Below are positions 1 to 15,399 of a stretch of DNA of 18,204 nt, in pieces. Within the stretch, counting starts at the first letter, position 1. Each line of letters starts with the position of its first letter. Source of the DNA: a virus. Lineage: Duplodnaviria; Heunggongvirae; Uroviricota; Caudoviricetes. Location: positions 1 to 18,204 of the IMG/VR virus record IMGVR_UViG_2737471864_000007, one strand, 5' to 3'. The translations under genes were made by a program, and so were the position numbers. The notes beneath the pieces are model-generated. The model searched no databases. It was not told the origin of the DNA and saw only the letters and a program-made list of their open reading frames with translations.

Positions 1-1446
1 ATGAAAATTGAAGCCGTTTTATTCGATTTAGATAACACGTTAGCATCAACAAGTAAGCTAAAAGATATTAGAGAGCGTGGGGCTTATGATGAAATAACAG
101 AAGAATTACTATCAACAGTTAAACCATATAAAGGTACCAAAGAATTACTAGAAAATCTGATTTCAAAAGGTATAAAAACAGGTGTCGTAACTAATTCAAG
201 TAAACGTTATGCAGAAAAAATAATTTCACATTTAAATTTACCAAATTTCGGTACTGTGGTGACATATACTGATGTAGGTTCATCAGGGATGAAACCAAAT
301 CCTACTGGTATTAATTTAGCATTAAAAAATCTAGGAATCTCAAATCCGGAACGGGTCATTTATATTGGGGACGATTATACAGATATTATTGCTAGTTATT
401 ATGCGGGGGTTATACCGATTGTTCCATCATGGGCATCAAGGACTCCTGTTTCTCAAGTGCCAGCCGCCGTATTAAGCACTGAGTTCCTTATAGATAATAT
501 TGATGAGTATGAGAATATAATTCTCATGGCGGAAAATTGTGCACGACACAATAGCTTTGAATTTGAGCGAAAAAGATTCTACTTTGTACCTTTGGATGAG
601 TCCGCTAATGTAATTCCTTCAAGTGAAACTCTATCTACAATATGTCTTGGACGTTATTTTTCGCAAAAAAGTTTACTTACAACAAAATTACACGATTCGC
701 ATCCATTATCTATTGAGATCGCCAAGAAAGAGTATGACGATAATTATGTGCCTCCAGAGTATTGGGGCGATATTTTAGCGCATGCGGCAGATAATATTCC
801 ATCTTTTTTCCGGGCTACTAAAGGTTTTGATATTGTTACAGTAATACCAGCTAAAAAAGGAAAAAAAGAAAGATTAGAGAGAGTCTTAGAAAATGCGCGA
901 AGTAAAAGCAATTCCAATGCTGCTTTTATAGCTGATCTTTTTGTTTTTAGTGAGGGAGCAAAATCACTTAAGACCTTACCAAAGGATCAGCGTTCGATAG
1001 AAATAGAATCTAGTTTGCATATGAATCCCAAATATAAAGGTACGCTTGAAGGTAAGACCGTATTAATATTTGATGATGTCATTACCACAGGCTCAACCTT
1101 AAAAAGAGCTTATTCATTGTTGAGAGACGAAAACGTTAAACATAGTTTAGGATTATGCTTGGCTAAAACAGTCTCTATATTTGAAGAGGATAGGCTTTGT
1201 CCTGAATGCATGTGTCACATTCTTAAAATAAAGACAAACTCTCTAACGGGTATTCGATTTTGGGGGTGTTCAGGATATAATGATGAATCAGATAAGTGTG
1301 ATTACACTGAAAGTATCGTTGAGAAACAATGCCCTAGCTGTGGTAGAGATATGGTTAAAAAGTATAATAAATGGAAGAGAGTTCGTTTTTTATCCTGTAC
1401 AGGATGGAATAAAGAACCTCGATGCAATTACACTGAGAGTGAGTGA
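1..1446 (+). CDS. shosT: Three-domain protein: N-terminal HAD-family phosphatase-like domain, central type I phosphoribosyltransferase (PRTase) domain, C-terminal tandem topoisomerase-type C4 zinc ribbons; candidate ShosT-like toxin/effector
   Basis: 481-aa ORF starting at window position 1. HAD motif I FDLDNTL at residues 8-14, with later TNS, KPNP and GDDYTD motifs. PRPP-binding loop VLIFDDVITTGSTL. Two C-terminal repeats (CPEC...IRFWGCSGY...CDYTE and CPSCG...VRFLSCTGW...CNYTE) resemble Topo I zinc ribbons. Visibly AT-rich versus the prophage backbone. Symbol is by analogy to the described PRTase + DprA-like ShosTA pair, not a verified match. Confidence 0.8.
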   Translation: MKIEAVLFDLDNTLASTSKLKDIRERGAYDEITEELLSTVKPYKGTKELLENLISKGIKTGVVTNSSKRYAEKIISHLNLPNFGTVVTYTDVGSSGMKPNPTGINLALKNLGISNPERVIYIGDDYTDIIASYYAGVIPIVPSWASRTPVSQVPAAVLSTEFLIDNIDEYENIILMAENCARHNSFEFERKRFYFVPLDESANVIPSSETLSTICLGRYFSQKSLLTTKLHDSHPLSIEIAKKEYDDNYVPPEYWGDILAHAADNIPSFFRATKGFDIVTVIPAKKGKKERLERVLENARSKSNSNAAFIADLFVFSEGAKSLKTLPKDQRSIEIESSLHMNPKYKGTLEGKTVLIFDDVITTGSTLKRAYSLLRDENVKHSLGLCLAKTVSIFEEDRLCPECMCHILKIKTNSLTGIRFWGCSGYNDESDKCDYTESIVEKQCPSCGRDMVKKYNKWKRVRFLSCTGWNKEPRCNYTESE

Positions 1447-2429
1447 TGTTGACAATATCTCCAGACACAGAAAAATTGTTAACACTTAGTGCCCTTAAAG
1501 GAGTGGGTACTAAGTCGTTATCTAGTTTAGGCATGCTCAAAGACTTTTCTAGTTTATCTCTTGAGGAGTTGGTGAGATTATTGGGGGTTAAGGAATTAGC
1601 TTCCGATGATTTTTTAGTGGCTAGAGATTTCGCAAGAAAGAATATTGATATAGCTCATGCTAAAAATCATTCTATAATTTCATTTTTTGATGAATGTTAC
1701 CCTGATACATTAAAGGTTACTAGCGATAGACCTGCAATACTTTATTGTGCTGGTAACATTGATTGTCTGCGTAATAAATGTTTGGCGGTAATTGGTACCC
1801 GTGAACCCACTCTACATGGTGAAACGATTGCAAAAAATATCACCAAGTGGTTCACCAAAAAAGGTTGGACCATTGTAAGTGGCTTGGCTAAAGGTGTTGA
1901 TTCAATTGCTCATACCTCCGCTATTGAAAACCAAGGTAAAACAATAGCAGTCATGGCTCAGGGGTTGGAAAAAATTTATCCCAGAGAGAATAAAAAACTC
2001 GCAATGGATATTATTAGTACAGGAGGAGTATTAATTTCGGAATATGCCTATGGAAGTCATACATTTCGTAATAACTTTGTAGAGCGTGATAGAATACAGG
2101 CAGGATTATCAGCTGGGGTTTTAATGGTTCAATCTGACTTAAAAGGTGGTAGTCTGCATGCATCTCGCTCAGCAGTAAATTATGGAAGATATCTTGTTAT
2201 TCCCAATCAGTCCAGAAGAGATATTCTTAATAGCGAGCCTAAAATACAGGCTAATCTTGCATTTATGAGTGGTGATTATTATTTAATTAGATCATTATTG
2301 AAAGTTAATGGAGATATAAGTAAATCTTTAATAATTATGGAAAGCAGTAACGATTACCTTAAGGTTGAAGAGCAATTGTACGATGCCCTTCATTCATTAC
2401 ATAATCAGTATAATGGTTTTGATTTTTAA
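1446..2429 (+). CDS. shosA: DprA/Smf-like Rossmann-fold DNA-binding protein; candidate ShosA-like antitoxin/partner
   Basis: ATG at 1446 overlaps the upstream stop by 1 nt (TGATG); the ORF track starts at an in-frame GTG at 1443. DprA-like core AVIGTREPT...IVSGLAKGVDSIAHTSAI...TIAVMAQGLEKIYPREN...ISEYAYG...F..RDRIQAGLS...VLMVQSDLKGGSLHASRSA...GR.LVIP. N-terminal region is helix-hairpin-helix-like. AT-rich. Confidence 0.8.
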   Translation: MLTISPDTEKLLTLSALKGVGTKSLSSLGMLKDFSSLSLEELVRLLGVKELASDDFLVARDFARKNIDIAHAKNHSIISFFDECYPDTLKVTSDRPAILYCAGNIDCLRNKCLAVIGTREPTLHGETIAKNITKWFTKKGWTIVSGLAKGVDSIAHTSAIENQGKTIAVMAQGLEKIYPRENKKLAMDIISTGGVLISEYAYGSHTFRNNFVERDRIQAGLSAGVLMVQSDLKGGSLHASRSAVNYGRYLVIPNQSRRDILNSEPKIQANLAFMSGDYYLIRSLLKVNGDISKSLIIMESSNDYLKVEEQLYDALHSLHNQYNGFDF

Positions 2430-2494: not shown

Positions 2495-3622
2495 TTAGAA
2501 GGTTACCGTTATCCAATTTTTACCTCGATCATCTCGATATTTAGCTGTCTGGTTTAGAGACTTGTGGCCAAGCAATTTCTGAGTATCAATACCTTGACCT
2601 CCGTAGAGACGTTCGGACAAGGAACGTTGTTCGTGGAATGTCGCTGGAGTACCATCACCCCAATCAATTCCTGCTAAATCTCTCGCTTTACTAAAATTCA
2701 TCGTCAATGTATTGGCTGTAACCTGCGCGCCACGTTCAGCCTGTGAAGTAGTACGAAAAAAATGTACAAGGTATGGGCTGACTACATAGTCACGACAGCG
2801 GGCTACTACATCGCGCAAACTCCAGTTGATCGCATTGAGACGCAGGGAAAGCGGGATGGCGATTTTGCTACCGGTTTTTTCCTGGATGACATGGAGATGA
2901 TCATCCCAAATATCGCTAAATTTCATACGCGAGATATCACCTAACCTCTGGCCGGTAACCAGTGCTAACAGCATGGCATTCCCCATATAACGATGACTGG
3001 CATCTGCGATATCAAAGATTTTTTGCCATTCTTCAAGACTTAACCGTTGTCGGGTAATTTTTCTTCTGGGCTGTTTGGTCGCTAATGCTGGATTATAGCC
3101 TGGAGGGACTTCCCCGTAGTGTTGTGCCTCCTTGAATACATCAATTAGAACGGAGCGGACTACTTGCGCCATCCTCGGTTGCCCAGCAGTGATATACTCG
3201 TCAAGCAATTGTGCGATATCCCTTACATCAACGGATGAAATTAACTTCATTCCTGCTCGCTCCCTGAGCAAGGACACTGGTTTAGCTTTCTGTTTATAGG
3301 TGTTGAGCTTTATATCACCACTTTTCAGTCTGTCATCCTGGATTGCTTGATAGCGATCTAACCAGGTTGATGTTGTGATTGCTTTTCCTTTGCTGGTTGC
3401 GATCCTGTCACTGATAGCCAGAATCTGCCGGGTTCTTTGCTCAGCCAGGCGTGTATTGGCCTCAGTGGCAATAGCAATGGCTTCCGCTTCGTTTGTGCCC
3501 AAAGAATGGAACTTCCCGGTCACTGGATGCTTATATCGCCAATAGACTTTATTTACTTTTCTGCTATAAAGCGGATACAAGTTCGGGACTGAAACATTAT
3601 TTTTACGTGGTCTGGCTGCCAT
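2495..3622 (-). CDS. int: Tyrosine site-specific integrase, lambda Int family
   Basis: 375 aa. N-terminal arm-binding-like region and C-terminal catalytic region ending HEQRSLSERLYGGQGIDTQKLLGHKSLNQTAKYRDDRG, closely resembling the lambda Int C-terminus including the catalytic Tyr context. Overlaps xis at its 5' end as in lambda. Confidence 0.9.
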   Translation of the reverse strand: MAARPRKNNVSVPNLYPLYSRKVNKVYWRYKHPVTGKFHSLGTNEAEAIAIATEANTRLAEQRTRQILAISDRIATSKGKAITTSTWLDRYQAIQDDRLKSGDIKLNTYKQKAKPVSLLRERAGMKLISSVDVRDIAQLLDEYITAGQPRMAQVVRSVLIDVFKEAQHYGEVPPGYNPALATKQPRRKITRQRLSLEEWQKIFDIADASHRYMGNAMLLALVTGQRLGDISRMKFSDIWDDHLHVIQEKTGSKIAIPLSLRLNAINWSLRDVVARCRDYVVSPYLVHFFRTTSQAERGAQVTANTLTMNFSKARDLAGIDWGDGTPATFHEQRSLSERLYGGQGIDTQKLLGHKSLNQTAKYRDDRGKNWITVTF

Positions 3623-3903: not shown

Positions 3904-4440
3904 TCAGGATTGCTTATGTATCTTATGCAGCTCTTTAAAACGTTCCATAAACATCCCGTAGGCATGGCCCGGAGCCAGTGGAATAACTTTGAATATCTCT
4001 GTTGCCGGGATACCTTCCAGTACTGGCCAGAAAGAGCCATCATCAAGCCCGAGATCGCGGCGTTCGGTTGCCAACATGATGAGATCGGCATATTTCACAG
4101 GTGTACTCATAACCGGGGGTAACCCGTATTTCTCACGGATTACGGCGTCTATTTTTTCTTCCATCCGTTTATAGTCGGGAAGAAGGTGTTTCAGTGGTGC
4201 GGGGATGTCCTGACAATATGCTTCTGTTGCATCATGCATTAACGCTTCAAAAGCAAATTCCTGCGGTACCAGCTGGCTGCAAAGCACCGCATGTTGGGCG
4301 ACGCTGTAGAAGTGTGAAAGATGTCCTGCAAAGCGACAGATATTTGAAAGGGAAACCGCGATATCGTTAATAACGATGTCGTCTTTATTTATCTTGTCAT
4401 AATAAAAATGCTTCCCGGAAAAAGTTTTAATAAATGACAT
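3904..4440 (-). CDS. yfdR: HD-domain phosphohydrolase, YfdR-like (prophage CPS-53/KplE1 family)
   Basis: 178 aa from the ATG at 4440 (GGAGA 6 nt upstream); the track's longer form uses an upstream GTG. HD-type H..HD metal-binding context (ALMHDATEAY). Identity to E. coli K-12 YfdR is from recollection of sequence, size and gene order; needs BLASTP. Confidence 0.75.
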   Translation of the reverse strand: MSFIKTFSGKHFYYDKINKDDIVINDIAVSLSNICRFAGHLSHFYSVAQHAVLCSQLVPQEFAFEALMHDATEAYCQDIPAPLKHLLPDYKRMEEKIDAVIREKYGLPPVMSTPVKYADLIMLATERRDLGLDDGSFWPVLEGIPATEIFKVIPLAPGHAYGMFMERFKELHKIHKQS

Positions 4441-4567
4441 TTTGTTCTCCACGTATATGCGCTGCACCGCGCTGAATTTTGGTTAAAGAAAACCCTCGCC
4501 ATCAGGTGATTATTGAGTCAATTATGTTTCCATAAATGCCCCCGCAGGGGCATTTGCAGTAATGAAA

Positions 4568-5392
4568 TCAGGCGTTGAAAGTACCAATAAAGGTTTTTAC
4601 TTTGCTGTCTTTGAATTTTTCAACTAGCAGATCACGAAATTCGTTAGCCATTTCTTCCTGTACTGCTTCCAGCTGAATAATGCGCTGAACCAGTACAGGG
4701 CGATCACCAGTGATAATGCTGAGTCGTAATTTAAACGGACGTTCTTTCAGGCCTTCAAACGGAACGCATTTAAATTCAAATGCCACTGGCATAATGTCTT
4801 TGGTCTTCGCTTCGACAGACTCCATCAGGGAGCGTTTGCCGCTGAAGTCATTGTCTTCAAAATCAGCAGTCTGGTTCGCTTCAATTGTGATTTTACGGAT
4901 CGCTGCAGCCGCTTTGGTTGCCTGAATGGCGTCACCATTAGCATCAAAGCCCACAAGGTAGTCTGCCCAGTCTTCAATCCATTCTGCCAGTGACTTCTGG
5001 GAGTTACGTTCGCCGTTAACAGACAACAGAGCAGAGAACGGGGCTGTCTTTTTCAGTTTGAGAGTGGCGGTGTTATCTGCGTGACCTGGTTCATCAATAG
5101 TACCCAGGTTAAGTACACTGACGGCACGCATATTATCAGCATCGATAAAGCAGCCGGTGCCTTTATCTGCAAGATCTTTAGAATAACGGGTAAAGTCATC
5201 GATGTTGGCAGTGGAAAGCGCACCACGGAAACGGAAGCGATTTAAATTAAATTTTTCCAGATCATGAATGCGGAAATTCTCAGGCAATGCTACAGCATCG
5301 GCACCAATCTTATTGATAATTTCATTAACACCCTGAGCAGAAATAAGGGCATGGATTTGATTAATTGCGGTTGCGTCTAAGTTCTGAGACAT
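4568..5392 (-). CDS. yfdQ: YfdQ-like protein (DUF2303 family), function unknown
   Basis: 274 aa, ATG at 5392 with GAGGA 8 nt upstream. Size and position between yfdP-like and yfdR-like genes match the K-12 CPS-53 order as I recall it; needs BLASTP. Confidence 0.75.
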
Positions 5393-5457
5393 AATAAGTC
5401 CTCACTATATAAAGATATTCAGTGATGAGATAAATAATCAGTTTATTAATAACGATA

Positions 5458-5820
5458 TTAACGACCTGCTGCGCGGAGTTTTCCGTCAGGCTCACCGGCA
5501 AGAGTCAGTAATTGTCCCTGGTCTTCCTGCAGAATAGTCAGGCGACCACCGCGATTGACATACATCGGCGTTTCTGTGGTGTCTTCTTCGGAAATTTTCC
5601 CGCGGTTAGTCGGGCGAACATATGAGAGTTTGTGTTTGATTTTCACACGGTTCTCATCAAATGGTTCGATTTCCAGGTTGAGTGAGACCTTACCTTTGGT
5701 TTTCGTGTTCATCACACCGGAAGCGACTTCACTGAGAACTGCGCCGATTTTGGTTTCAAATACGCCGCCGTCCAGCTCCCCGATAAATGCCTGCACATCA
5801 GTACTGCGTTCGCTAGCCAT
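5458..5820 (-). CDS. yfdP: YfdP-like hypothetical protein
   Basis: 120 aa starting MASERSTDVQAFIGELDGG at the ATG at 5820, with AGGAG 8 nt upstream. The track's 226-aa form extends into the GC-rich ORF-free segment with an Arg/Cys/Pro-rich, non-protein-like translation, so the extension is rejected. Confidence 0.65.
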   Translation of the reverse strand: MASERSTDVQAFIGELDGGVFETKIGAVLSEVASGVMNTKTKGKVSLNLEIEPFDENRVKIKHKLSYVRPTNRGKISEEDTTETPMYVNRGGRLTILQEDQGQLLTLAGEPDGKLRAAGR

Positions 5821-7166: not shown

Positions 7167-8057
7167 ATGGAAGACGCGCTTTACGCTTTTAATTACACAC
7201 AGAACCGGGACAAGTTATTTGCTAACTTGATTAGCATCATTGATGGAATCATTGCAGATGGAGTTGTCCGTGAAGAGGAGGTTCTTTACTTAGATACATG
7301 GTTACTTGAAGCAAAGCAGATTATCAATAATGGAGTTATAAAAAGTCTATCAGCACGGGTGTCGGATATTCTTGCGGATGGAATAATCACATCAGAAGAA
7401 CGTGATGACCTTAAAAATAGCCTTCTCCAAATACAGAGGGAAATTCTTGATATCCCTGAAATTGATTTTTACTCCAAGGATGTAGATGTCCATTTACTTA
7501 ATGGACTATGTAAAGGATTAATTGCTGATCGGAACTTAACTCAAGAAGAAATAAGATATCTTAATTGGTGGCTTGAGCAAAATGGAGCTTTGAAGAACAA
7601 CTACCCAGGAAAAAAACTTTATGCACTTGTAAAGGAAATTCTTAAAGATGGGGTTATTACTGAAGATGAGAGTTTAACTCTACATAAGGCATTAGTAGAC
7701 TTCACAGGATGTGACTTGGAAAGTGGGGTGGTGGATGGTTTGGCGACCAGGCTGCCTATTGATGTAGGGGCTTCGATAGAGTTAGAGGGTAAAACCTATT
7801 GTCTTACAGGCACTTTTGTTGCAGGAAAGAGAGCCGTAGTTGAAAATTTGATTAAAAATGCTGGTGGGAACATCAGTAGTGGAATTACTCAAAAGTTGGA
7901 TTTTTTAGTAATTGGGACGCTTTCCTCCCGTGATTGGAAATTCTCAAGTCACGGAAGGAAGATCGAAAAAGCTATATCTTATAGGGATGATAATGGTGCA
8001 AAACTTAAAATTATTTCTGAAGAAATGCTTTTCGATGCATTACCAAGTTCGCGATGA
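7167..8057 (+). CDS. TerB-like helical-repeat protein with C-terminal BRCT domain; AT-rich cargo gene between OL and cI
   Basis: ATG at 7167 with AGGAGG 4 nt upstream; the track's form starts at a GTG at 7137. Four repeats of the pattern (A/K)DG.I(T/R).EE...L (IADGVVREEEVLYL, LADGIITSEERDDL, IADRNLTQEEIRYL, LKDGVITEDESLTL). C-terminal GKTYCLTGTF...GGNISSGITQKLDFLVIG...GRKIEKA...GAKLKIISEEMLFDAL resembles the LigA-type BRCT fold. Convergent 18-nt overlap with the cI 3' end. Confidence 0.75.
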   Translation: MEDALYAFNYTQNRDKLFANLISIIDGIIADGVVREEEVLYLDTWLLEAKQIINNGVIKSLSARVSDILADGIITSEERDDLKNSLLQIQREILDIPEIDFYSKDVDVHLLNGLCKGLIADRNLTQEEIRYLNWWLEQNGALKNNYPGKKLYALVKEILKDGVITEDESLTLHKALVDFTGCDLESGVVDGLATRLPIDVGASIELEGKTYCLTGTFVAGKRAVVENLIKNAGGNISSGITQKLDFLVIGTLSSRDWKFSSHGRKIEKAISYRDDNGAKLKIISEEMLFDALPSSR

Positions 8058-8726
8058 CCAGAATACCCTACCTATAACATGAATTCTGGCTCGTCTATCT
8101 TCAAAGGTGAGTATTTCATCTGGGTACTCATCTTTGTTGAAGCTTCTAAGAATCAAGCCACCGTCAGGTAAGTTGATAAGTATTTTAACCCTTAGCAATA
8201 CACCATCTCGTACGGCATAAAGATCGCCATCACGAATAGGAACGGTTTGAGAAATATCAACGGCAACAAGATCTCCATTATTGAGAACCGGTAATAAACT
8301 GTTCCCCCATATTTTTACGATCTTGGCATTAGATGCACATACGCCAGATTTTCTCAAATCTGCTCTTCTTAACGGAAACCAGTCAATAGCTGATTCAACT
8401 ATTTCAGCCAGACATCCGTTACCTGCCGATAACTCGACATCTAAAACAGGAATGTTTACGAAAATATCGGGGTCTAATGCGGTGCTTTCTGCTTCTTTTA
8501 CAACAAGATCAGGTATGGATGCGTTATCTTCAATACCAAGTTGTAACCACTTTTGTGATACACCTAAAACTTTTGCAATTTCTTTAATTTTGCGCGGTTG
8601 TAGAGTTTCGCCATTCTCTATTTTGGCTACAGATTGTTGTGAAAGTCCAATTTTTTCAGCTAGTTGAGCTTGGCTCATGCCAGCTTTCTCTCTACCTATC
8701 TTTAATCGTTCTGCCAGTGTTTTCAC
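8040..8726 (-). CDS. cI: CI-like prophage repressor (XRE-type HTH + LexA/S24 peptidase-like autocleavage domain)
   Basis: 228 aa. N-terminal HTH (LAERLKIGREKAGMSQAQLAEKIGLSQQSVAKIENGE) and C-terminal S24-like region (GNSLLP...). GTG start at 8726 with a GAGAGGGA SD-like sequence. Divergent from cro. Confidence 0.85.
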   Translation of the reverse strand: MKTLAERLKIGREKAGMSQAQLAEKIGLSQQSVAKIENGETLQPRKIKEIAKVLGVSQKWLQLGIEDNASIPDLVVKEAESTALDPDIFVNIPVLDVELSAGNGCLAEIVESAIDWFPLRRADLRKSGVCASNAKIVKIWGNSLLPVLNNGDLVAVDISQTVPIRDGDLYAVRDGVLLRVKILINLPDGGLILRSFNKDEYPDEILTFEDRRARIHVIGRVFWSSRTW

Positions 8727-10317: not shown

Positions 10318-10896
10318 ATGATTAATCCTTCCGAAGTTGGTAAATCCGGGGAAATGGCACGACTACGTACACTGGAAAGTGTATGGATACAGGGCAAACT
10401 GCGTATGTGGGGGCGCTGGTCATTCATCGGCGGCGGCTCAGGCGGCAATATGTTTAACCAGTTGCTGGCCTCCGGGAAAATCACCAAGACAGCCATCAAT
10501 GACGCTTTACGTCGCATGAAGAAGTCAGGCCTGACAAAACCAGAGCTCGAAGCGTTCTTTCGTGAAATTATCGATGGCAAAAATAAGACAGGCATTTCGT
10601 TCTGCTCAGATGATGAGGGTGTATGCATTGATGGCGTTATCGCGGCTGTGCTGATCTCAAATGGTCATAACGGATTGTTTGATGTGCTACTGGACAGATA
10701 CCGCTATCGCAAGAGCAAACGTCTCATGGCAGAGCAACTTCAAAAGCGCCATCCAGAATGGTGCTACATGACCTGCCGCCGCCGAATTGATTCCTGGCTA
10801 AGTTTGGCAGAATTCATGCTTTACGCACCAATGTGTGATGCATTCGGCACAAATAGCAGCAGATTTAAGTTGCAATGTGAGCCAGGAGGTGCTTAA
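10318..10896 (+). CDS. Putative late-gene antiterminator (Q-like) with Cys pairs
   Basis: 192 aa. Position immediately upstream of a terminator and the lysis cassette. Two Cys pairs (CSDDEGVC, CYMTC) are compatible with a zinc-binding Q-type protein. Assigned by position and architecture, not by recognised homology. Confidence 0.5.
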   Translation: MINPSEVGKSGEMARLRTLESVWIQGKLRMWGRWSFIGGGSGGNMFNQLLASGKITKTAINDALRRMKKSGLTKPELEAFFREIIDGKNKTGISFCSDDEGVCIDGVIAAVLISNGHNGLFDVLLDRYRYRKSKRLMAEQLQKRHPEWCYMTCRRRIDSWLSLAEFMLYAPMCDAFGTNSSRFKLQCEPGGA

Positions 10897-10946
10897 ATTG
10901 TGTTACGCTCGGGACGCAAAAGCGAACAGAGCAACAAACATTAAGA

Positions 10947-10970
10947 ACCCGCCAGCGTGCGGGTTTTTTG
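10947..10970 (+). terminator. Rho-independent terminator downstream of the Q-like gene (tR'-like)
   Basis: ACCCGC-CAGCGT-GCGGGT stem followed by TTTTTT. Confidence 0.6.
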
Positions 10971-11009
10971 TTATCATTACCTTTTAAACTTCTAATGGAA
11001 GGTAATGAT

Positions 11010-11582
11010 ATGTGGTTAGGGATTCCTTTTATCTATGTTCAGGAACGGCTGGCAGACACAATTAGCATCAGTAAAATACCATCTATTTCTATAGAATCTT
11101 CATTCTCCTCCGAAACGATTATAGCCGCATTTATTAGTGGATTGGTTCCAGCACTGATATCTTTGTATGTGATTAGACAAAATAACGAGTCTGTCCGATA
11201 TCAACAAAAGCAAGAGAATAAAAGACATTATTCTGCGCATTTAAGGGTGGTAGTTAGCGAGTATGCATACCAACTTAATAAAGTTAAAGAGATACATGCC
11301 GAATGGGTTTCTGTTAGCACAACAATGATCCAATATAAGCTAACAAGCTTAGAAGAAAAAATGTCTGAGGCTCTATTAGAACTGGAAAGATTTAAAGTTA
11401 GCTTGTTAATTTCTATTCCTGATGATGAAGATGGTGCATTGTTTAAGAAATCAATAAATACCATCTCAGAAAAGCTATCTTCATTAATTAAGGGGAGGCA
11501 TATATCAATGGTTGATGGAATGGGATGGGCTGGCCTTTATATGTCATTCATTTCAGATGCTAATAAGTATCTAAATAAATAA
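11010..11582 (+). CDS. AT-rich moron: membrane-anchored helical protein, function unknown
   Basis: ATG at 11010 with GGAAGG about 7 nt upstream; alternative in-frame ATG at 10995; the track's form uses a TTG at 10968 inside the terminator. One predicted TM helix (IIAAFISGLVPALISLYVI) followed by a charged helical region. Flanked by terminators on both sides. Confidence 0.6.
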   Translation: MWLGIPFIYVQERLADTISISKIPSISIESSFSSETIIAAFISGLVPALISLYVIRQNNESVRYQQKQENKRHYSAHLRVVVSEYAYQLNKVKEIHAEWVSVSTTMIQYKLTSLEEKMSEALLELERFKVSLLISIPDDEDGALFKKSINTISEKLSSLIKGRHISMVDGMGWAGLYMSFISDANKYLNK

Positions 11583-11604
11583 AATATATTTTATTAAAAT
11601 ATCA

Positions 11605-11633
11605 AAAGCCACTTAATTGTGGCTTTTTGTTTT
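11605..11633 (+). terminator. Rho-independent terminator downstream of the moron
   Basis: AGCCAC-TTAATT-GTGGCT stem followed by TTTTT G TTTT. Confidence 0.6.
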
Positions 11634-11674
11634 CCCTCTTTTTGAGAGGACTCACAGCAATAAGAGGGGGCTAA

Positions 11675-12070
11675 ATGTCCGATCCTGTTTCTGGCACTAC
11701 GGTTGCCGCTGGTGGCCTTATGGGAGCCAGTGTTTTTGGTATCGCAACTGGTATTGATTATGGCGTGGTGTTTGGCGCTTTCGCAGGAGCTGTGTTCTAC
11801 GTAGCGACAGCAGCAAACATCAGTAGGATGAAGTTGGTTGGCTATTTCGTGACATCGTTTATTGTCGGCGTTCTTGGCGCTGGGCTTGTTGGTTCGTACC
11901 TTGCCAAATGGACAGGCTACAGCGACAGGCCACTTGATGCTCTCGGCGCAGTGGCAGTAGCTGCGTTGGCCATCAAACTTCTTACCTTCATCAACAGTCA
12001 GGATCTAGGAAGCCTGTTCAGTATGCTTTCGCGATTGCGTGGAGGAGGGACCAGCAATGGTAACAAGTGA
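11675..12070 (+). CDS. Putative holin (multi-TM small membrane protein)
   Basis: 131 aa, Gly/Ala-rich hydrophobic segments consistent with 3-4 TM helices. AAGAGGGGG SD upstream. First gene of the lysis cassette. Confidence 0.65.
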   Translation: MSDPVSGTTVAAGGLMGASVFGIATGIDYGVVFGAFAGAVFYVATAANISRMKLVGYFVTSFIVGVLGAGLVGSYLAKWTGYSDRPLDALGAVAVAALAIKLLTFINSQDLGSLFSMLSRLRGGGTSNGNK

Positions 12071-12338
12071 TCCTTCAGCGATGATCAATGCGGGTATTTG
12101 CGCGGTCATTGTAATTGCTCTGATGTTTTACCAACGTGGCGGTGCCAGACATCGCCCGATAGTTTCTCTTCTCGCTTATTTCACGGTGCTGGTTTATGCC
12201 AGCATCCCGTTCCGCTATCTGTTCGGCCTCTACCAGGAATCACACTGGCTGGTGGTCATCGTTAACATCCTGATATGCGCCGCCGTGCTATGGGCTCGGG
12301 GAAACGTGGCGCGTCTTATTGATGCTCTGAGGCACTAA
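12057..12338 (+). CDS. Second lysis-cassette membrane protein (holin/antiholin-like)
   Basis: About 93 aa from the ATG at 12057 (GGAGGAGGGA SD 6 nt upstream); the track's form starts at a GTG at 12039. Three hydrophobic segments. Overlaps the holin stop and the endolysin start. Confidence 0.55.
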   Translation: MVTSDPSAMINAGICAVIVIALMFYQRGGARHRPIVSLLAYFTVLVYASIPFRYLFGLYQESHWLVVIVNILICAAVLWARGNVARLIDALRH

Positions 12339-12952
12339 TGAACCAATCACAATTTCAACAGGCGGCTGTTATTAGCGCCGGGTTAGCTGCGCGCTGGTTT
12401 CCGCACATTGATGCGGCGATGAAGGAATTCGGCATTACAGCACCAGCGGATCAGGCAATGTTTATCGCTCAGGTAGGCCATGAGTCGATGGGGTTTAGCG
12501 CCGTAGTTGAAAATTTTAACTACACACCATCTGCGCTGGTGGCGACGTTCGGAAAGAGGATCACACAGCAGCAGGCTGATGCCCTTGGCAGAACATCCGG
12601 ACATGCAGCTCGTCAGGATGCTATTGCCAATCTGGTGTATAGCAACCGACTGGGTAACAAAGCACCCGGTGATGGCTGGAAATATCGTGGTAGAGGATTA
12701 ATTCAAATCACTGGCCTCCATAATTATCGCATCTGTGGCGCGGAGCTGAAGTTAGATCTGGTGACTTCACCTGAACAACTTGAACAGGAACTACAGGCCG
12801 CGCGCTCAGCTGCATGGTTCTACACCTCTAAAGGCTGCATGATCTACGGTGCCGATATTAATCGTGTTACGCGTATCATTAACGGCGGTCTGAACGGTAT
12901 TGAGGATCGTAAAGTCCGATACAACAAGGCGCGGGCGGCGCTGCTGGTATGA
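12338..12952 (+). CDS. Endolysin, glycoside hydrolase family 19 (chitinase-like lysozyme)
   Basis: 204 aa. GH19-type motifs FIAQVGHESMGF...NF.Y...YRGRGLIQITGLHNY. Start overlaps the upstream stop (TAATG). Confidence 0.8.
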   Translation: MNQSQFQQAAVISAGLAARWFPHIDAAMKEFGITAPADQAMFIAQVGHESMGFSAVVENFNYTPSALVATFGKRITQQQADALGRTSGHAARQDAIANLVYSNRLGNKAPGDGWKYRGRGLIQITGLHNYRICGAELKLDLVTSPEQLEQELQAARSAAWFYTSKGCMIYGADINRVTRIINGGLNGIEDRKVRYNKARAALLV

Positions 12953-13341
12953 AGATGAGTTATTGGGCGCTCATTTTAACGTTTATTGCTTGTGTTGCTG
13001 GTGGTCTTGTCTGGTCAGCGAATCACTATCATGGAAAGTTTCTGGAGGAGCAGAAGCGTGCTGACGCTGCGGAACAGCGAGCTGATTCTACTGAAGCTAT
13101 CACCGCGAATGTCCTGCGAACTATGGCAATAACGAACATCATTCAGGAGGCGAATCAACATGCAAAACAGCAGATCGCACTGGAGTCACAGAGAACCCAG
13201 GAAGATATCAAAGTGGCTATTGCGAATGATGATTGCGCTTCACGTCCTGTGCCTGCTACCGCTGCTGACCGGTTGCGGAAGTACGCGGACAGTTTACGTG
13301 AGCGATCCGGTGGCACCCCTGCCAGCCAGCCTGACTTCTGA
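12949..13341 (+). CDS. Rz-like inner-membrane spanin (i-spanin)
   Basis: 130 aa. N-terminal TM (WALILTFIACVAGGLVW) followed by a charged coiled-coil-like region. Start overlaps the endolysin stop (ATGA). Confidence 0.7.
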   Translation: MKMSYWALILTFIACVAGGLVWSANHYHGKFLEEQKRADAAEQRADSTEAITANVLRTMAITNIIQEANQHAKQQIALESQRTQEDIKVAIANDDCASRPVPATAADRLRKYADSLRERSGGTPASQPDF

Positions 13342-13498
13342 TACTCCAGTACCGTTTATACCCAATCCGCTGACGTATGGTACCAGTCTGGAGTTGAATG
13401 TTGCTCTATTGTCAGCCTTGGGACAATGTAATTTTGATAAAACTGGAATCAGAAATATTGAATCACGGCGCGCTATTTTGCATTCGAAAGACAAATAG
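13226..13498 (+). CDS. Rz1-like outer-membrane lipoprotein spanin (o-spanin), overlapping the 3' part of the Rz-like gene in another frame
   Basis: Lipobox LLTGC after a short signal peptide (MMIALHVLCLLPLLTGC). Pro-rich mature region. Starts inside the Rz-like gene and extends past its stop. Exact start (13226 or 13229) uncertain. Confidence 0.6.
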   Translation: MMIALHVLCLLPLLTGCGSTRTVYVSDPVAPLPASLTSDTPVPFIPNPLTYGTSLELNVALLSALGQCNFDKTGIRNIESRRAILHSKDK

Positions 13499-13866
13499 CT
13501 CGAGTTATATTTTTCATTATCGTTGCGAATGCTCCTAATAAAGCTGTGTATTATGGTAATTTTATAAAGCCTATGGGTTTAAGTTCAGATGCTAGCGTTT
13601 TTATAGCGTAATGTAGCAGCTTACATAAAATATGCATCGTGATTAACTATTAGGCCAACCTTTTGGACCAATATGAAAGTGGAAGTTTATACAAATCGTT
13701 TGTCGATGATTAAACATGTGTCTAGTAGCGCTAGTCATGAACAGGTTTATTACGTATCATTTTGTGTAGATTATCGAGAGTACAACTAGTAGAGCAGCTA
13801 ATCTTTAGATAGTGCCAGTGATGTTCACTTGCGATAAACTAACCTTTTCATTCAGTGGAGGTTATT

Positions 13867-14301
13867 ATGTGGCATACATTACTTAACTGGCCTTGGGGAA
13901 CTGTGTGGTCAGCTGTATCGGCTTTAGGTTCAATTGTAACTGTTACATTAGGTTTTTGGGCAATGAATGTTTGGCGGCGACAGGAGGCTCTGAAGGCCAA
14001 AATGGCTCTGAAAATGGCAGTGGCTGATTATTCAAATGCATTATCACAACTACCTTTATCTCTTAGTCGTAATGTTCGTATTGAAAAAAGGGCCGAGCTA
14101 CGAGAGTTAAATCATAAATTAAATGCTGTTAATAATGCTTTTTTGATATGCGAACATATGTTGGAAAAATACCCACGTGTAAACAGCGGTTGTCGTTCTT
14201 TATCTGTTGCCCACAAAGAATATATTAGAATGAGAGATAATAGTATTCAGGCGAAACATATTTGTCATAATATTCTTTCAGAGCAGTTTGTATTCAAATG
14301 A
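13867..14301 (+). CDS. AT-rich moron: membrane-anchored helical protein, function unknown
   Basis: About 144 aa from the ATG at 13867 (GGAGG 6 nt upstream). N-terminal TM (WSAVSALGSIVTVTLGFWAMNVW) then a helical, Lys/Arg-rich region. Preceded by about 360 bp of AT-rich non-coding DNA. Confidence 0.55.
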   Translation: MWHTLLNWPWGTVWSAVSALGSIVTVTLGFWAMNVWRRQEALKAKMALKMAVADYSNALSQLPLSLSRNVRIEKRAELRELNHKLNAVNNAFLICEHMLEKYPRVNSGCRSLSVAHKEYIRMRDNSIQAKHICHNILSEQFVFK

Positions 14302-14428
14302 AAATGAACGATTGGTATTTACTTGCCGTTTATTCATTGGATTGAAAAGTCTATTTAACAAACCGTGTTAAAGCGGTTTCTGATTGCAGTTATGGTTAGA
14401 TATTTAACGAAAACTACAGGGATAATAG

Positions 14429-14779
14429 ATGCCTCCACGAACCCCAAAAGCCTGCCGCGTTCGCGGCTGCCGCCATACCACGACTGACCCGTCAGGCTAT
14501 TGCGAAAGCCACAAAAGCGAAGGCTGGAAGCAATATAAGCCAGGCCAGTCCCGACACCAGCGCGGTTATGGTTCTAAGTGGGACGTTATCCGCGCGCGTG
14601 TGCTGAAGCGTGACAAAGGCCTGTGCCAGTTGTGCCTGCGTGCCGGTGTGGTGCGCGAGGCGAAAACCGTTGACCACATCATCCCTAAAGCGCATGGCGG
14701 CTCTGATGCCGACAGTAATCTGCAGAGTCTGTGCTGGCTGTGTCATAAGGCGAAGACGGCCCGTGAACGGCTGAAGTAA
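14429..14779 (+). CDS. HNH endonuclease (phage terminase-associated)
   Basis: 116 aa. Cys pairs (CRVRGC...C.SH) and the HNH core DHIIPKAHGGSDADSNLQSLCWLCH. Located immediately upstream of terS, as in HK97-like cos phages. Confidence 0.85.
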   Translation: MPPRTPKACRVRGCRHTTTDPSGYCESHKSEGWKQYKPGQSRHQRGYGSKWDVIRARVLKRDKGLCQLCLRAGVVREAKTVDHIIPKAHGGSDADSNLQSLCWLCHKAKTARERLK

Positions 14780-14805
14780 GAACCAGTTCCCACTGCCAGA
14801 GGGGA

Positions 14806-14866
14806 GGGGCGGGTCAAATCCCTGTGACCTGACGTCTTCCGGACTGCCCGCCCCATCGTTTTTTTA
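14806..14866 (+). other. GC-rich long-range stem plus T-tract between HNH and terS; candidate cos-region element or terminator
   Basis: GGGGCGGG (14806-14813) pairs with CCCGCCCC (14847-14854), followed by ATCG and a run of seven T. Confidence 0.3.
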
Positions 14867-14904
14867 TACCCGCGAAAAATGAAATTTAACCAGGAGTGCC
14901 GCAT

Positions 14905-15399
14905 ATGGCTGGAACGGCGGGGCGTTCCGGGCGTCGCCCCAAGCCAACGGCGCGCAAGGCGCTGGCCGGAAACCCCGGCAAGCGAGCCCTGAATAAAGAT
15001 GAACCTGTTTTTACGCCCATCAAAGGTGTTGAGCCACCGGAGTGGTTCGCTGAAGAAGATCTCCCTCTCGCCACGATCATGTGGCAACTGACAACCAAAG
15101 AACTCTGCGGTCAGGGCCTGCTGTGCGTGACTGACCTCGCGGTGCTTGAGCGGTGGTGCGTGGCCTACGAGTTCTGGCGACGTGCCGTGAAAAATATTGC
15201 CAGACAGGGCAACACCATCACCGGTGCAATGGGCGGTATGGTCAAAAATCCGGAGCTGACCGCCAAAAAAGAACAGGAGTCCGAGATGAGCAGTACGGGG
15301 GCAATGCTCGGACTCGACCCCAGCAGCCGCCAGCGTCTGATTGGCCTGGCGGGGAAGAAGAAAGCCACTAACCCGTTTCTGAAAATTATCGAATCATGA
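14905..15399 (+). CDS. terS: Terminase small subunit (P27-like family)
   Basis: About 164 aa from the ATG at 14905 (CAGGAG upstream); the track's form starts at a GTG at 14896. Basic N-terminus. Stop overlaps the terL start (ATGA). Confidence 0.75.

What the first reader, a model, noticed from the sequence alone, without database searches (positions are those of the whole stretch)
13499..14301. Second AT-rich moron, with a long AT-rich leader, between Rz/Rz1 and the packaging genes
Seen in sequence: about 360 bp of AT-rich non-coding DNA followed by an ORF with a GGAGG SD encoding an N-terminal TM helix plus a helical domain. This architecture resembles the Q-to-lysis moron, although the sequences look unrelated. 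The locus sits between the lysis and packaging modules. Inference: independently acquired cargo, possibly silenced by a nucleoid-associated protein given the AT-rich leader; candidate exclusion or defence factor.
Basis: partly seen in the sequence, partly recalled or inferred. Interest (0 to 1): 0.55.

Follow-up and report, generated by a model that had tools for sequence, protein, structure and literature searches.

The report
Prophage cargo gene with masked ribosome site
This is a real piece of add-on cargo (a "moron") in an E. coli prophage: it encodes an uncharacterised membrane protein, and its start signal is folded into a hairpin so that probably only the gene's own short transcript can be translated.

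Summary
Window 13499-14428 is an AT-rich island (GC 0.31-0.43, flanks 0.50-0.59). It holds 368 bp of non-coding DNA, a GGAGG (13857-13861) and a 144-aa ORF (13867-14301).

The ORF is a real gene: dN/dS is 0.09-0.21 against relatives. It belongs to a small Enterobacterales prophage family (PHROG 6169; no Pfam, PADLOC or PDB match). The protein is predicted to have one N-terminal membrane helix (N-out/C-in) and a cytoplasmic four-helix bundle.

It is cargo. About 1334 E. coli genomes carry the Rz1/HNH flanks and only 27 carry this insert. One relative has a bare 26-bp junction, and others hold different cargo there.

The "long leader" is lineage-specific filler. Only the last ~85 nt are conserved. 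They contain a -10-like hexamer at about -32, directly before an anti-SD arm that pairs with the SD. The Q-to-lysis moron in the same window (11010-11582) has the same layout.

The best reading is T4 gene e-like logic. Late read-through transcripts would be translationally silent and own-promoter transcripts translatable. This is inferred, because no transcription start site (TSS) has been mapped.

The protein's function is unknown. Membrane-level phage exclusion is the leading guess. H-NS silencing is untested.

The parts
13499..14410 (.). AT-rich cargo insert between the Rz1 stop codon and the short native spacer before the HNH gene
   Evidence: GC is 0.31-0.43 against 0.50-0.59 in the flanks. 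The empty-site relative L102 has only 26 bp between Rz1 and HNH, and that spacer resembles window ~14405-14428. The flanks occur in 1334 E. coli genomes and the insert in 27.
13499..13781 (+). Lineage-specific non-coding filler (the distal part of the 'leader')
   Evidence: It is found only in the E. coli clade, at 94-100% identity in close relatives and 75% in the L003 clade. It is absent from all other family loci and shows no coding pattern. There is no Rfam match.
13782..13866 (+). Conserved regulatory block that travels with the gene
   Evidence: It aligns across loci whose proteins are only 49-69% identical. The covariance model built on its proximal 41 nt found only family members at E <= 0.05.
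13817..13825 (+). Degenerate copy (AGTGATGTT) of an extended -10-like element that reads TGTGATAAT in relatives
   Evidence: Alignment of upstream regions. Promoter function is inferred only.
13835..13840 (+). -10-like hexamer TAAACT (TAAAAT, TAGAAT, TACAAT or TATAAT in relatives), starting at -32 from the ATG
   Evidence: A strict -10 hexamer starts at -36..-28 (mode -32) in 30 of 50 distinct family upstream regions, against 11 of 510 control genes. The window copy matches only 4 of 6 positions. With GTGCCA (13812-17) at a 17-nt spacing it scores 8 of 12, below the scanner's threshold.
13840..13864 (+). SD-sequestering hairpin: 5' arm UAACCUUUUC (13840-49), loop 13850-54, 3' arm GUGGAGGUUA (13855-64)
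   Evidence: The MFE is -7.0 kcal/mol and the SD pairing probability is 0.97. This window copy is weak (z -1.2). Relatives have 9-bp perfect stems of -11.8 to -13.7 kcal/mol (z -3.4).
13857..13861 (+). Shine-Dalgarno GGAGG
   Evidence: Read directly from the sequence.
13867..14301 (+). ORF of 144 aa: N-terminal TM helix (about residues 10-34, N-out/C-in) plus a cytoplasmic helical bundle; PHROG 6169
   Evidence: (E 5.4e-57).
14360..14379 (+). Weak terminator-like hairpin (AAACCG...CGGUUU followed by CUGAUU)
   Evidence: The fold energy is -8.4 kcal/mol with z -1.8, and the terminator scan did not call it. The L003 clade has UUUUUGAUU after the same stem, and most other family members have strong GC-rich terminators here.
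10948..11628 (+). Sister cassette (the Q-to-lysis moron): tR'-like terminator 10948-10969, TATCAT 10972-10977, 15-bp SD-sequestering hairpin 10972-11010, ORF 11010-11582, terminator 11606-11628
   Evidence: -15.7 kcal/mol, z -5.05; phrog_18859; hhalign probability 84% to the target family.

Best explanation
The locus is a self-contained moron cassette, dropped between the spanin genes and the HNH/terminase genes of a lambdoid E. coli prophage. Its working parts are the last ~85 nt before the ATG, the ORF, and a weak terminator.

The ORF encodes a bitopic inner-membrane protein. It has a short acidic or neutral N-tail outside the membrane and one small-residue-rich TM helix. A strongly basic juxtamembrane helix (W-R/K-x-Q-E/D-x-L-K-A-K-x-x-F-K) and a four-helix bundle lie in the cytoplasm.

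Proposed expression logic (inferred): an anti-SD arm lying about 20-28 nt upstream of the ATG pairs with the SD. Long transcripts that read through from upstream would therefore carry a masked ribosome-binding site. In an induced prophage these are the Q-antiterminated late transcript. A -10-like hexamer sits immediately 5' of that arm. A sigma-70 start about 7 nt downstream of it would fall inside or after the anti-SD arm and give a ~20-nt leader with a free SD. The protein would then be made from the moron's own transcript, for example in the lysogen. It would not be made in bulk from late mRNA. This is the logic established for T4 genes e, soc, 49 and I-TevI.

Proposed protein role (the weakest step): a lysogen-expressed membrane factor that interferes with superinfecting phages at the inner membrane, by exclusion or abortive infection. 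Overproduction late in the phage's own cycle would presumably be harmful.
For: Moron status:
- The GC drop in the window is seen in every relative, with gene GC 0.37-0.44 against flanks 0.47-0.57.
- The same gene follows holin/endolysin/spanin sets of different families. It precedes either HNH+P27 TerS or Nu1-like+GpA.
- It also sits between TerL and portal in the temperate lambdoid phage CobraSix and its relatives.
- An empty site and alternative cargo exist at the same junction.
- Strong intrinsic terminators follow most family members.

Real gene: dN/dS is 0.09-0.21.

Topology: the N-tail has net charge -0.76. The 18 residues after the TM helix have net charge +3.1, across 42 members.

Fold: pLDDT 81.

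SD masking:
- The median probability that the SD core pairs with upstream bases is 0.85 in 49 distinct family upstream regions. It is 0.41 in 260 control genes from the same loci (MWU p 4e-12).
- Removing the sequence upstream of -20 lowers the RBS opening energy by a median 4.3 kcal/mol. For 510 control genes the drop is 1.1 (p 2e-11). After truncation the targets look like ordinary genes, at 6.6 against 6.8 kcal/mol.
- Divergent members use different complementary arms: CCUCCUU/AAGGAGG, CACCUC/GAGGUG, GCCUC/GAGGC, UCACC/GGUGA and UCUCC/GGAGA.

-10 element: it is at a fixed distance (mode -32) in 30 of 50 family upstream regions, against 11 of 510 controls.

Same design elsewhere: the window's other moron and its 10 relatives have the same layout, with compensatory arm changes.

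Precedents: the T4 logic is described in PMC3014915. The moron definition and HK97 gp15, an inner-membrane exclusion protein encoded by a moron, are described in PMC3594210.
Against: - No transcription start has been mapped, so the promoter is only a consensus match.
- There is no convincing -35 or TGn next to the proximal hexamer.
- In one group of relatives the hexamer overlaps the end of an upstream gene and part of an extended stem, either of which could explain its conservation.
- Formal covariation on the aligned stem is no better than column shuffles: 82% of cells are paired, but the covariation score equals the shuffle mean. The SD arm is sequence-constrained, so the structural case rests on conserved complementarity and on controls.
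- The family upstream regions are phylogenetically related, so the p-values overstate independence.
- In this window all three signals are the weakest in the family: TAAACT matches 4 of 6, the hairpin is -7 kcal/mol with z -1.2, and the terminator is poor.
- Several members (L053/55, L084-88, and some CobraSix-like loci) have no clear proximal hexamer or only a long-loop hairpin.
- Nothing links the protein to any known exclusion or defence family.
Confidence: 0.5

Rival explanations
1. The cassette is still a moron, but the hairpin is simply a constitutive translational attenuator, a 5' stabiliser or a thermosensor. The TAnAAT box is not the working promoter. Transcription would start further upstream, for example at the TGTGATAAT-type element or the 13732-13760 promoter-like site. 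Every transcript would then carry the hairpin, and the protein would be made at a low, possibly temperature-dependent, level in both lysogenic and lytic states.
For: An extended -10-like TGTGATAAT lies about 20 nt upstream of the proximal hexamer in several relatives, and it is the only -10-like element in L084-88. The scanner calls TAGTCA-17-TATCAT at 13732-13760. The window's stem (UUUU opposite GGAG, G-U pairs, one mismatch, -7 kcal/mol) resembles fourU-type thermometers (the resemblance is from memory). SD masking is common for toxic membrane proteins.
Against: This reading does not explain why a near-consensus -10 hexamer is held at -32 +/- 3, directly abutting the anti-SD arm, in 30 of 50 distinct upstream regions against 2% of controls. 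It also does not explain why the unrelated-looking moron 1 repeats that geometry. Most relatives have perfect 9-bp G+C-rich stems (-12 to -14 kcal/mol) that would not melt at 37-42 C. The upstream promoter-like sites lie in DNA that is not conserved across the family.
Confidence: 0.25
2. The gene is an accessory of the lysis cassette, such as an antiholin or a holin/spanin modulator. It would be co-expressed with the lysis genes and tune lysis timing, and would not be lysogen-expressed cargo.
For: In most loci it lies directly after the spanin genes on the same strand. It has a single small-residue-rich TM helix (47% A/G/S/T), as many holin-associated proteins do. The holin gene of this window also has a masked SD.
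Against: The gene is absent from about 98% of E. coli prophages that share the same Rz1/HNH flanks, and the junction can be empty. Family members also sit between TerL and portal, or between a methyltransferase and ParB-N/TAGT genes, away from lysis genes. It is combined with at least four different holin/endolysin/spanin sets. It has no Pfam or PHROG lysis annotation. Its predicted topology is the opposite of i-spanins. SD masking on late transcripts would work against co-expression with the lysis genes.
Confidence: 0.1
3. In this particular prophage the cassette is decaying or silent cargo. Its regulatory signals have degenerated and the AT-rich island is H-NS-bound, so the gene contributes little or nothing here.
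For: The window clade has the weakest -10 (TAAACT), the weakest hairpin and the weakest terminator of the family. About 280 bp of fast-evolving AT-rich filler is attached. One relative has an IS5 inserted in the leader. The closest pair has dN/dS of 0.44. At 31-38% GC the island is typical H-NS target composition (established knowledge).
Against: The ORF is intact in all 27 E. coli genomes and in IMG/VR copies at 97-100% protein identity. A dN/dS of 0.44 on 3% divergence is noisy. The H-NS high-affinity motif is not enriched. Silencing by H-NS and having a function are not mutually exclusive.
Confidence: 0.1

Closest known systems
Phage morons as defined for HK97/HK022 (Juhala et al.; reviewed in PMC3594210), e.g. 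HK97 gene 15
   Same: It is extra DNA relative to syntenic relatives, with deviant (low) GC. It is a single gene inside a late operon on the same strand. It has a promoter-like element upstream and, in most family members, an intrinsic terminator downstream. The product is a small inner-membrane protein.
   Different: There is no sequence or fold relation to gp15. Expression from the prophage and any exclusion phenotype are untested. The conserved SD-masking hairpin abutting the -10 is not part of the classical moron description.
T4 gene e / soc / 49 / I-TevI transcript-specific translational control (PMC3014915)
   Same: The SD is buried in a hairpin on long read-through transcripts. A promoter element lies in or next to the DNA encoding the 5' arm, so that its transcripts lack the inhibitory strand.
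   Different: Here the host would be a temperate lambdoid phage, with a sigma-70-type -10 rather than the gp55 late promoter TATAAATA. The temporal sense would also be reversed: long late transcripts silent, and the short and presumably lysogenic transcript active. No TSS or translation data exist.
PHROG 6169 (unknown function) and the sister family PHROG 18859
   Same: The ORF matches phrog_6169 end to end (E 5.4e-57). The window's other moron matches phrog_18859 (E 1.9e-56).
   Different: Neither PHROG has any annotation, so membership says nothing about function.
Lambda bor/lom-type lysogenic-conversion genes at the Rz-cos junction
   Same: It occupies the same genomic niche (after Rz/Rz1, before the packaging genes) and is cargo-like.
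   Different: Bor is an outer-membrane lipoprotein encoded on the opposite strand. There is no homology.

Membership tests
Moron (Juhala/Hendrix definition) | Extra DNA compared with otherwise syntenic relatives | tested here: met
   The flanks occur in 1334 E. coli genomes and the insert in 27. The empty site has a 26-bp spacer (L102), and alternative cargo occurs at the same junction.
Moron (Juhala/Hendrix definition) | Base composition different from neighbouring phage genes | tested here: met
   GC is 0.31-0.43 against 0.50-0.59 in the window. Gene GC is 0.37-0.44 against flanks of 0.47-0.57 in all relatives.
Moron (Juhala/Hendrix definition) | Own promoter | tested here: inconclusive
   A conserved -10-like hexamer lies at -32 (30 of 50 against 11 of 510 controls). 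There is no clear -35. The window copy matches 4 of 6 and the scanner does not call it. No TSS data exist.
Moron (Juhala/Hendrix definition) | Own terminator | tested here: inconclusive
   Strong terminators follow most family members. The window has only a weak hairpin at 14360-14379.
Moron (Juhala/Hendrix definition) | Expressed from the repressed prophage | not testable with these tools
   This needs RNA or protein data from a lysogen.
PHROG 6169 | Full-length profile match | tested here: met
   E 5.4e-57, residues 3-144 on profile positions 2-164 of 165.
T4 gene e-type transcript-specific translation | SD or AUG sequestered by an upstream complementary strand in long transcripts | tested here: met
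   Met by prediction only. The median SD pairing probability is 0.85 against 0.41 in controls. The upstream-dependent opening cost is 4.3 against 1.1 kcal/mol. Covariation is not significant.
T4 gene e-type transcript-specific translation | Promoter placed so that its transcripts lack the 5' strand of the hairpin | tested here: inconclusive
   The geometry fits: the hexamer ends 0-4 nt before the arm, so a start 7 nt downstream falls inside or after the anti-SD. Promoter activity and the TSS are unmeasured.
T4 gene e-type transcript-specific translation | Measured difference in translation between long and short transcripts | not testable with these tools
   This needs reporter fusions or ribosome profiling.
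Known superinfection-exclusion membrane proteins (HK97 gp15, P22 SieA, T4 Imm/Sp) | Sequence or fold relationship | tested here: not met
Known superinfection-exclusion membrane proteins (HK97 gp15, P22 SieA, T4 Imm/Sp) | Inner-membrane location | tested here: met
   Met by prediction only: a single TM helix and the positive-inside charge pattern across 42 members.
Known superinfection-exclusion membrane proteins (HK97 gp15, P22 SieA, T4 Imm/Sp) | Blocks infection by other phages | not testable with these tools
   This needs phage challenge assays.
Catalogued anti-phage defence systems (PADLOC-DB 2.0) | Match to a defence-protein model | tested here: not met
   The query has no hit. Among 42 members there are only scattered single hits at E 0.002-0.012.
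Lysis proteins (holin / antiholin / spanin) | Family match, i-spanin-like N-in/C-out topology, obligatory linkage to a lysis cassette | tested here: not met
   There is no lysis Pfam or PHROG match. The predicted topology is N-out/C-in. The gene also occurs between TerL and portal and in a DNA-modification region.
RNA thermometer (fourU/ROSE-like) | A weak, mismatch-containing SD stem that melts near 37-42 C, conserved as such | tested here: not met
   The window stem is weak and U-rich (-7 kcal/mol). Most relatives have perfect 9-bp stems of -12 to -14 kcal/mol.
H-NS-silenced xenogeneic DNA | AT-rich tract; enrichment of high-affinity sites; H-NS occupancy | tested here: inconclusive
   The AT-richness criterion is met. 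The TCGATAAATT-like motif is not enriched (31 against 24 +/- 5). Occupancy cannot be tested here.

The most novel reading that the evidence does not exclude
The -10-inside-a-hairpin layout could be a reusable "translational insulator" for cargo genes embedded in the late operons of temperate lambdoid phages. It would let a gene be translated from its own short transcript, probably in the lysogen. The same gene would stay silent on the abundant Q-antiterminated late mRNA that must pass through it. The two TM-plus-helical-bundle families that carry the layout (PHROG 6169 and PHROG 18859) flank the lysis cassette in this window. They would then be distant relatives forming a new class of lysogen-expressed inner-membrane phage-exclusion or abortive-infection proteins.
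Probability: 0.3. Interest if true: 0.65.

Novelty: new variant of a known kind. Interest (0 to 1): 0.45.

Why it matters
Morons are where prophages keep genes that change their host. Most of them, like this one, encode unannotated small membrane proteins.

Two results make this one worth an experiment. First, the family is small and confined to lambdoid prophages of Enterobacterales. It is under purifying selection and swaps in and out of a defined hot spot, which is the signature of a conflict gene. Second, it carries a conserved regulatory layout that is easy to test. If that layout is real, it explains how a gene sitting in the path of massive late transcription can be kept out of the lytic programme.

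The same layout on a second cargo gene in the same prophage suggests a general solution and not an accident. If the promoter prediction fails, the locus is an ordinary moron with an attenuated ribosome-binding site.

Tried and rejected
- Searches of Pfam, NCBIfam, PADLOC and PDB sequences, with the single protein and with 42 family members, found nothing meaningful.
- Rfam scanning of 10500-15200 gave no hit in the island. The only hit is a sub-threshold STnc350 match over the moron-1 terminator.
- I looked for a small protein or sRNA in the 13499-13866 leader. ORF 13673-13789 has no SD and no coding conservation. The leader has no relatives outside the E. coli clade by blastn or tblastx.
- Formal covariation of the stem is not distinguishable from shuffles, so I do not claim covariation support.
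- A covariance model of the motif found no further copies in front of other genes in 85 loci. It did find a second, tandem family paralog in L035/L036.
- The H-NS high-affinity motif is not enriched.
- The hairpin could be read as a terminator of upstream transcription. Only some members have a U-run after it, and those between TerL and portal have none, so this is not general.
- I sampled other cargo at the Rz1-HNH hot spot for the same layout. Most lie on the opposite strand or lack the hairpin, so the layout is not universal among morons.
- Literature searches for the protein accessions, the PHROG number, or a described SD-masking design in morons found nothing.
Full report
**What is there**

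The window is a lambdoid E. coli prophage. It contains the following genes:
- an integrase (2495-3622, minus strand)
- a cI-like repressor (8040-8726, minus strand)
- a CII-like gene
- a Q-like antiterminator (10318-10896)
- two holins, a GH19 endolysin and embedded Rz/Rz1
- an HNH endonuclease, a P27-family TerS and a TerL

Between the Rz1 stop (13498) and the HNH start (14429) GC falls to 0.31-0.43, against 0.50-0.59 on both sides. The first 368 bp are non-coding. GGAGG lies at 13857-13861 and the ATG at 13867. The ORF runs to 14301 and encodes 144 aa.

**The ORF is a gene**

It matches PHROG 6169 end to end (E 5.4e-57, unknown function). It has 21 clusters of 145-aa homologues at 62-69% identity without indels, in Escherichia, Salmonella, Enterobacter and Hafnia. 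An exhaustive profile search of 1.8 billion representatives found only 66 clusters. Those with names are "hypothetical protein" from Enterobacter, Klebsiella, Pectobacterium and Pantoea.

Pairwise dN/dS is 0.09-0.21 at saturating dS, and 0.44 for a pair only 3% apart. No member hits Pfam, NCBIfam, PADLOC or any PDB sequence convincingly.

Across 42 members the N-tail carries net charge -0.76 with almost no K/R. The 18 residues after the TM helix carry +3.1, with five K/R. The positive-inside rule therefore predicts N-out/C-in. The best-conserved stretch of the family is the juxtamembrane motif W-(R/K)-x-Q-(E/D)-x-L-K-A-K-x-x-F-K.

**It is cargo**

In about 30 loci the gene sits on the late strand, directly after spanin genes and before packaging genes. 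The flanking modules differ between loci:
- Holins belong to Holin_2_1, holin_8 or holin_3_7.
- Endolysins are GH19, GH24 or GH108.
- Spanins are Rz/Rz1 or DUF2514.
- Packaging genes are HNH+P27 TerS or Nu1-like+GpA.

More distant members lie between TerL and portal, or between a methyltransferase and ParB-N/TAGT genes. One lies downstream of an Acb2/Tad1-like gene. The only cultured phage carrying a TerL-portal copy, CobraSix, is itself a temperate lambdoid phage with integrase, excisionase and Q.

In complete E. coli genomes the Rz1/HNH flanks occur in 1334 genomes, but the insert occurs in only 27 (28 counting one copy truncated by an IS5). One relative has a bare 26-bp Rz1-HNH spacer. Others hold a GrlR-family gene, unrelated small genes (often on the opposite strand), or a very divergent member of this same family. 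That member is L105, scoring 107 bits against the family HMM. The junction is a cargo hot spot and this gene is one of its alleles.

**The "long leader" is not the regulatory unit**

Positions 13499 to about 13780 exist only in the E. coli lineage. They are 75% identical to the L003 clade, which is more diverged than the gene, and they carry no coding pattern or Rfam match. In other family members the distance from the preceding gene ranges from about 25 to about 900 bp.

What is conserved is the last ~85 nt. It has two features. First, the SD is the 3' arm of a hairpin whose 5' arm is an anti-SD. In many relatives the hairpin is AACCUCCUU-loop-AAGGAGGUU, at -11.8 to -13.7 kcal/mol with z about -3.4. 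In the window it is UAACCUUUUC-AUUCA-GUGGAGGUUA (13840-13864), at -7 kcal/mol with z -1.2. Second, a -10-like hexamer (TAAAAT, TAGAAT, TACAAT or TATAAT; TAAACT at 13835-13840 in the window) ends 0-4 nt before that arm.

**Is this more than chance?**

- The probability that the SD core pairs with upstream bases has a median of 0.85 in 49 distinct family upstream regions. It is 0.41 in 260 other genes of the same loci (57% against 12% above 0.8; MWU p 4e-12).
- The cost of opening -16..+5 is 11.2 kcal/mol on a -60..+35 transcript, against 8.5 for 510 control genes. Starting the RNA at -20 lowers it by a median 4.3 kcal/mol in the family. The drop is 1.1 in controls (p 2e-11). After truncation the family looks ordinary, at 6.6 against 6.8.
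- A strict -10 hexamer starts at -36..-28 (mode -32) in 30 of 50 distinct upstream regions, against 11 of 510 controls.

There are caveats. The sequences are related, so the p-values are inflated. Formal covariation on an aligned 9-bp stem is no better than column shuffles (82% paired), because the SD arm cannot vary freely. What does vary is informative: divergent members use different complementary arms (CACCUC/GAGGUG, GCCUC/GAGGC, UCACC/GGUGA, UCUCC/GGAGA).

**The same layout on the other moron**

The Q-to-lysis ORF (11010-11582, PHROG 18859) follows a tR'-like terminator (10948-10969). It begins with TATCAT (10972-10977), which overlaps the 5' arm of a 15-bp hairpin. That hairpin buries its SD and AUG (-15.7 kcal/mol, z -5.05), and the ORF ends with a strong terminator. 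Ten relatives keep the layout with compensatory arm changes.

A profile-profile comparison of the two protein families gives 84% probability (E 8e-6) over the TM and juxtamembrane helix. This is suggestive of distant homology, not proof. BLASTP sees nothing.

**Most likely mechanism**

A sigma-70 start about 7 nt after the hexamer (established promoter geometry) would fall inside or just after the anti-SD arm. That is about 13845-13849 in the window, and it would give a ~20-nt leader with a free SD. Transcripts arriving from upstream carry both arms and a masked SD. After induction, these are the Q-antiterminated late RNA that must cross both morons and their terminators.

This is the logic documented for T4 genes e, soc, 49 and I-TevI (PMC3014915). 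Here it would be applied with the opposite temporal sense: own-promoter transcripts translated, late read-through RNA silent. It fits the classical moron picture of own promoter, own terminator and expression from the repressed prophage (PMC3594210). It adds a way to keep the product out of the lytic programme.

Shown: the conserved complementarity, the position of the hexamer and the predicted energetics. Inferred: promoter activity, the TSS and the differential translation.

**Protein function**

Nothing ties the protein to a known family. Four properties point to a lysogen-expressed membrane-level exclusion or abortive-infection factor, by analogy with HK97 gp15 (PMC3594210):
- it is a bitopic inner-membrane protein;
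- it is swapped as alleles at a hot spot;
- it is restricted to temperate phages;
- it is apparently shielded from late overexpression.

I put this at roughly one in three. A lysis-timing role is less likely, for three reasons. The gene is dispensable in 98% of prophages with the same flanks. It occurs away from lysis genes. It combines freely with unrelated lysis cassettes.

H-NS silencing is plausible from composition only, and a high-affinity motif is not enriched.

**Weak points in this window**

The window clade has the poorest versions of all three signals: a hexamer matching 4 of 6, a -7 kcal/mol stem and a weak terminator at 14360-14379. One relative has an IS5 in the leader. The cassette here may be attenuated relative to its relatives, although the ORF is intact in every copy.

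**Verdict**

This is a genuine moron encoding a member of a small, uncharacterised prophage membrane-protein family. The "long leader" and H-NS ideas are not supported by comparison with relatives. The defence idea is untested.

The added value is a conserved layout, shared by two cassettes, in which a -10 hexamer abuts an SD-masking hairpin. It predicts transcript-specific translation and can be tested with simple 5'-end mapping and reporter fusions.

Noticed in passing
window 10948-11628: The Q-to-lysis moron (ORF 11010-11582, phrog_18859) has the same layout as the target. TATCAT overlaps the 5' arm of a 15-bp hairpin that buries its SD and AUG (-15.7 kcal/mol, z -5). The cassette is flanked by a tR'-like terminator and its own terminator. 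The layout is conserved with compensatory changes in 10 relatives. hhalign gives 84% probability to the target family, and there is a faint KwaA hit (E 0.007).
   Followed up: partly
window 11634-11677: The first holin gene (ATG at 11675) also has a masked SD. CCCUCU (11634-39) can pair either with the SD AGAGGGGG (11663-70) or with a nearby decoy GAGAGG (11644-49). The segment is conserved in all moron-1 relatives. It looks like an sdi-type switch for holin translation.
   Followed up: no
window 1-2429: Two AT-rich genes (GC 0.35) lie next to the integrase end of the prophage. One is a HAD phosphatase-PRTase-Zn-ribbon fusion (it starts at window position 1, so its N-terminus may be cut). The other is a DprA/SLOG-like protein. 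They look like a conflict or defence-type pair at the attachment-site edge. This left end differs from the otherwise near-identical prophage in strain L3Cip3 (L001).
   Followed up: no
E. coli genomes, Rz1-HNH junction (L102-L109): The junction is a cargo hot spot. It can be empty (26 bp), or hold a GrlR-family regulator with a strong terminator, pairs of small genes on either strand, a 197-aa TM protein, or a very divergent paralogue of the target family (L105:1038-1529). That paralogue has its own TAATAT plus CGCUCC/GGGAGGC hairpin.
   Followed up: partly
L035-L038, 3964-5010: These viral contigs carry two tandem paralogues of the family (about 4001-4435 and 4573-5010). Each is preceded by its own copy of the -10/hairpin motif (covariance-model hits of 38 and 45 bits).
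   Followed up: no
L084-L088, about 1079-2368: A distant family member (141 aa) lies two genes downstream of an Acb2/Tad1-like anti-CBASS/Thoeris sponge gene and upstream of TerS/TerL. Here only the upstream TGTGATAAT element is present and the hairpin is different (UCAAG/CUUGA).
   Followed up: no
L002 (E. coli 1506), 4332-5518: The AT-rich leader (equivalent to window 13400-13789, 95% identical) occurs behind a different lysis cassette (lambda-type holin, GH24). It is cut by an ISKpn26 (IS5-family) insertion exactly where the conserved regulatory block would begin.
   Followed up: no
window 11597-11660 (minus strand): There is a sub-threshold Rfam match to the Salmonella sRNA STnc350 (26.9 bits against a gathering score of 60, E 0.067). 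It overlaps the moron-1 terminator and is probably a chance match.
   Followed up: no
L104:1317-1547: An unrelated 76-aa acidic cargo protein at the same hot spot also has its SD (UGAGG) paired with an upstream CCUCA (-9.8 kcal/mol). The masking idea may therefore extend beyond the two TM families. Other sampled cargo lacks it.
   Followed up: partly
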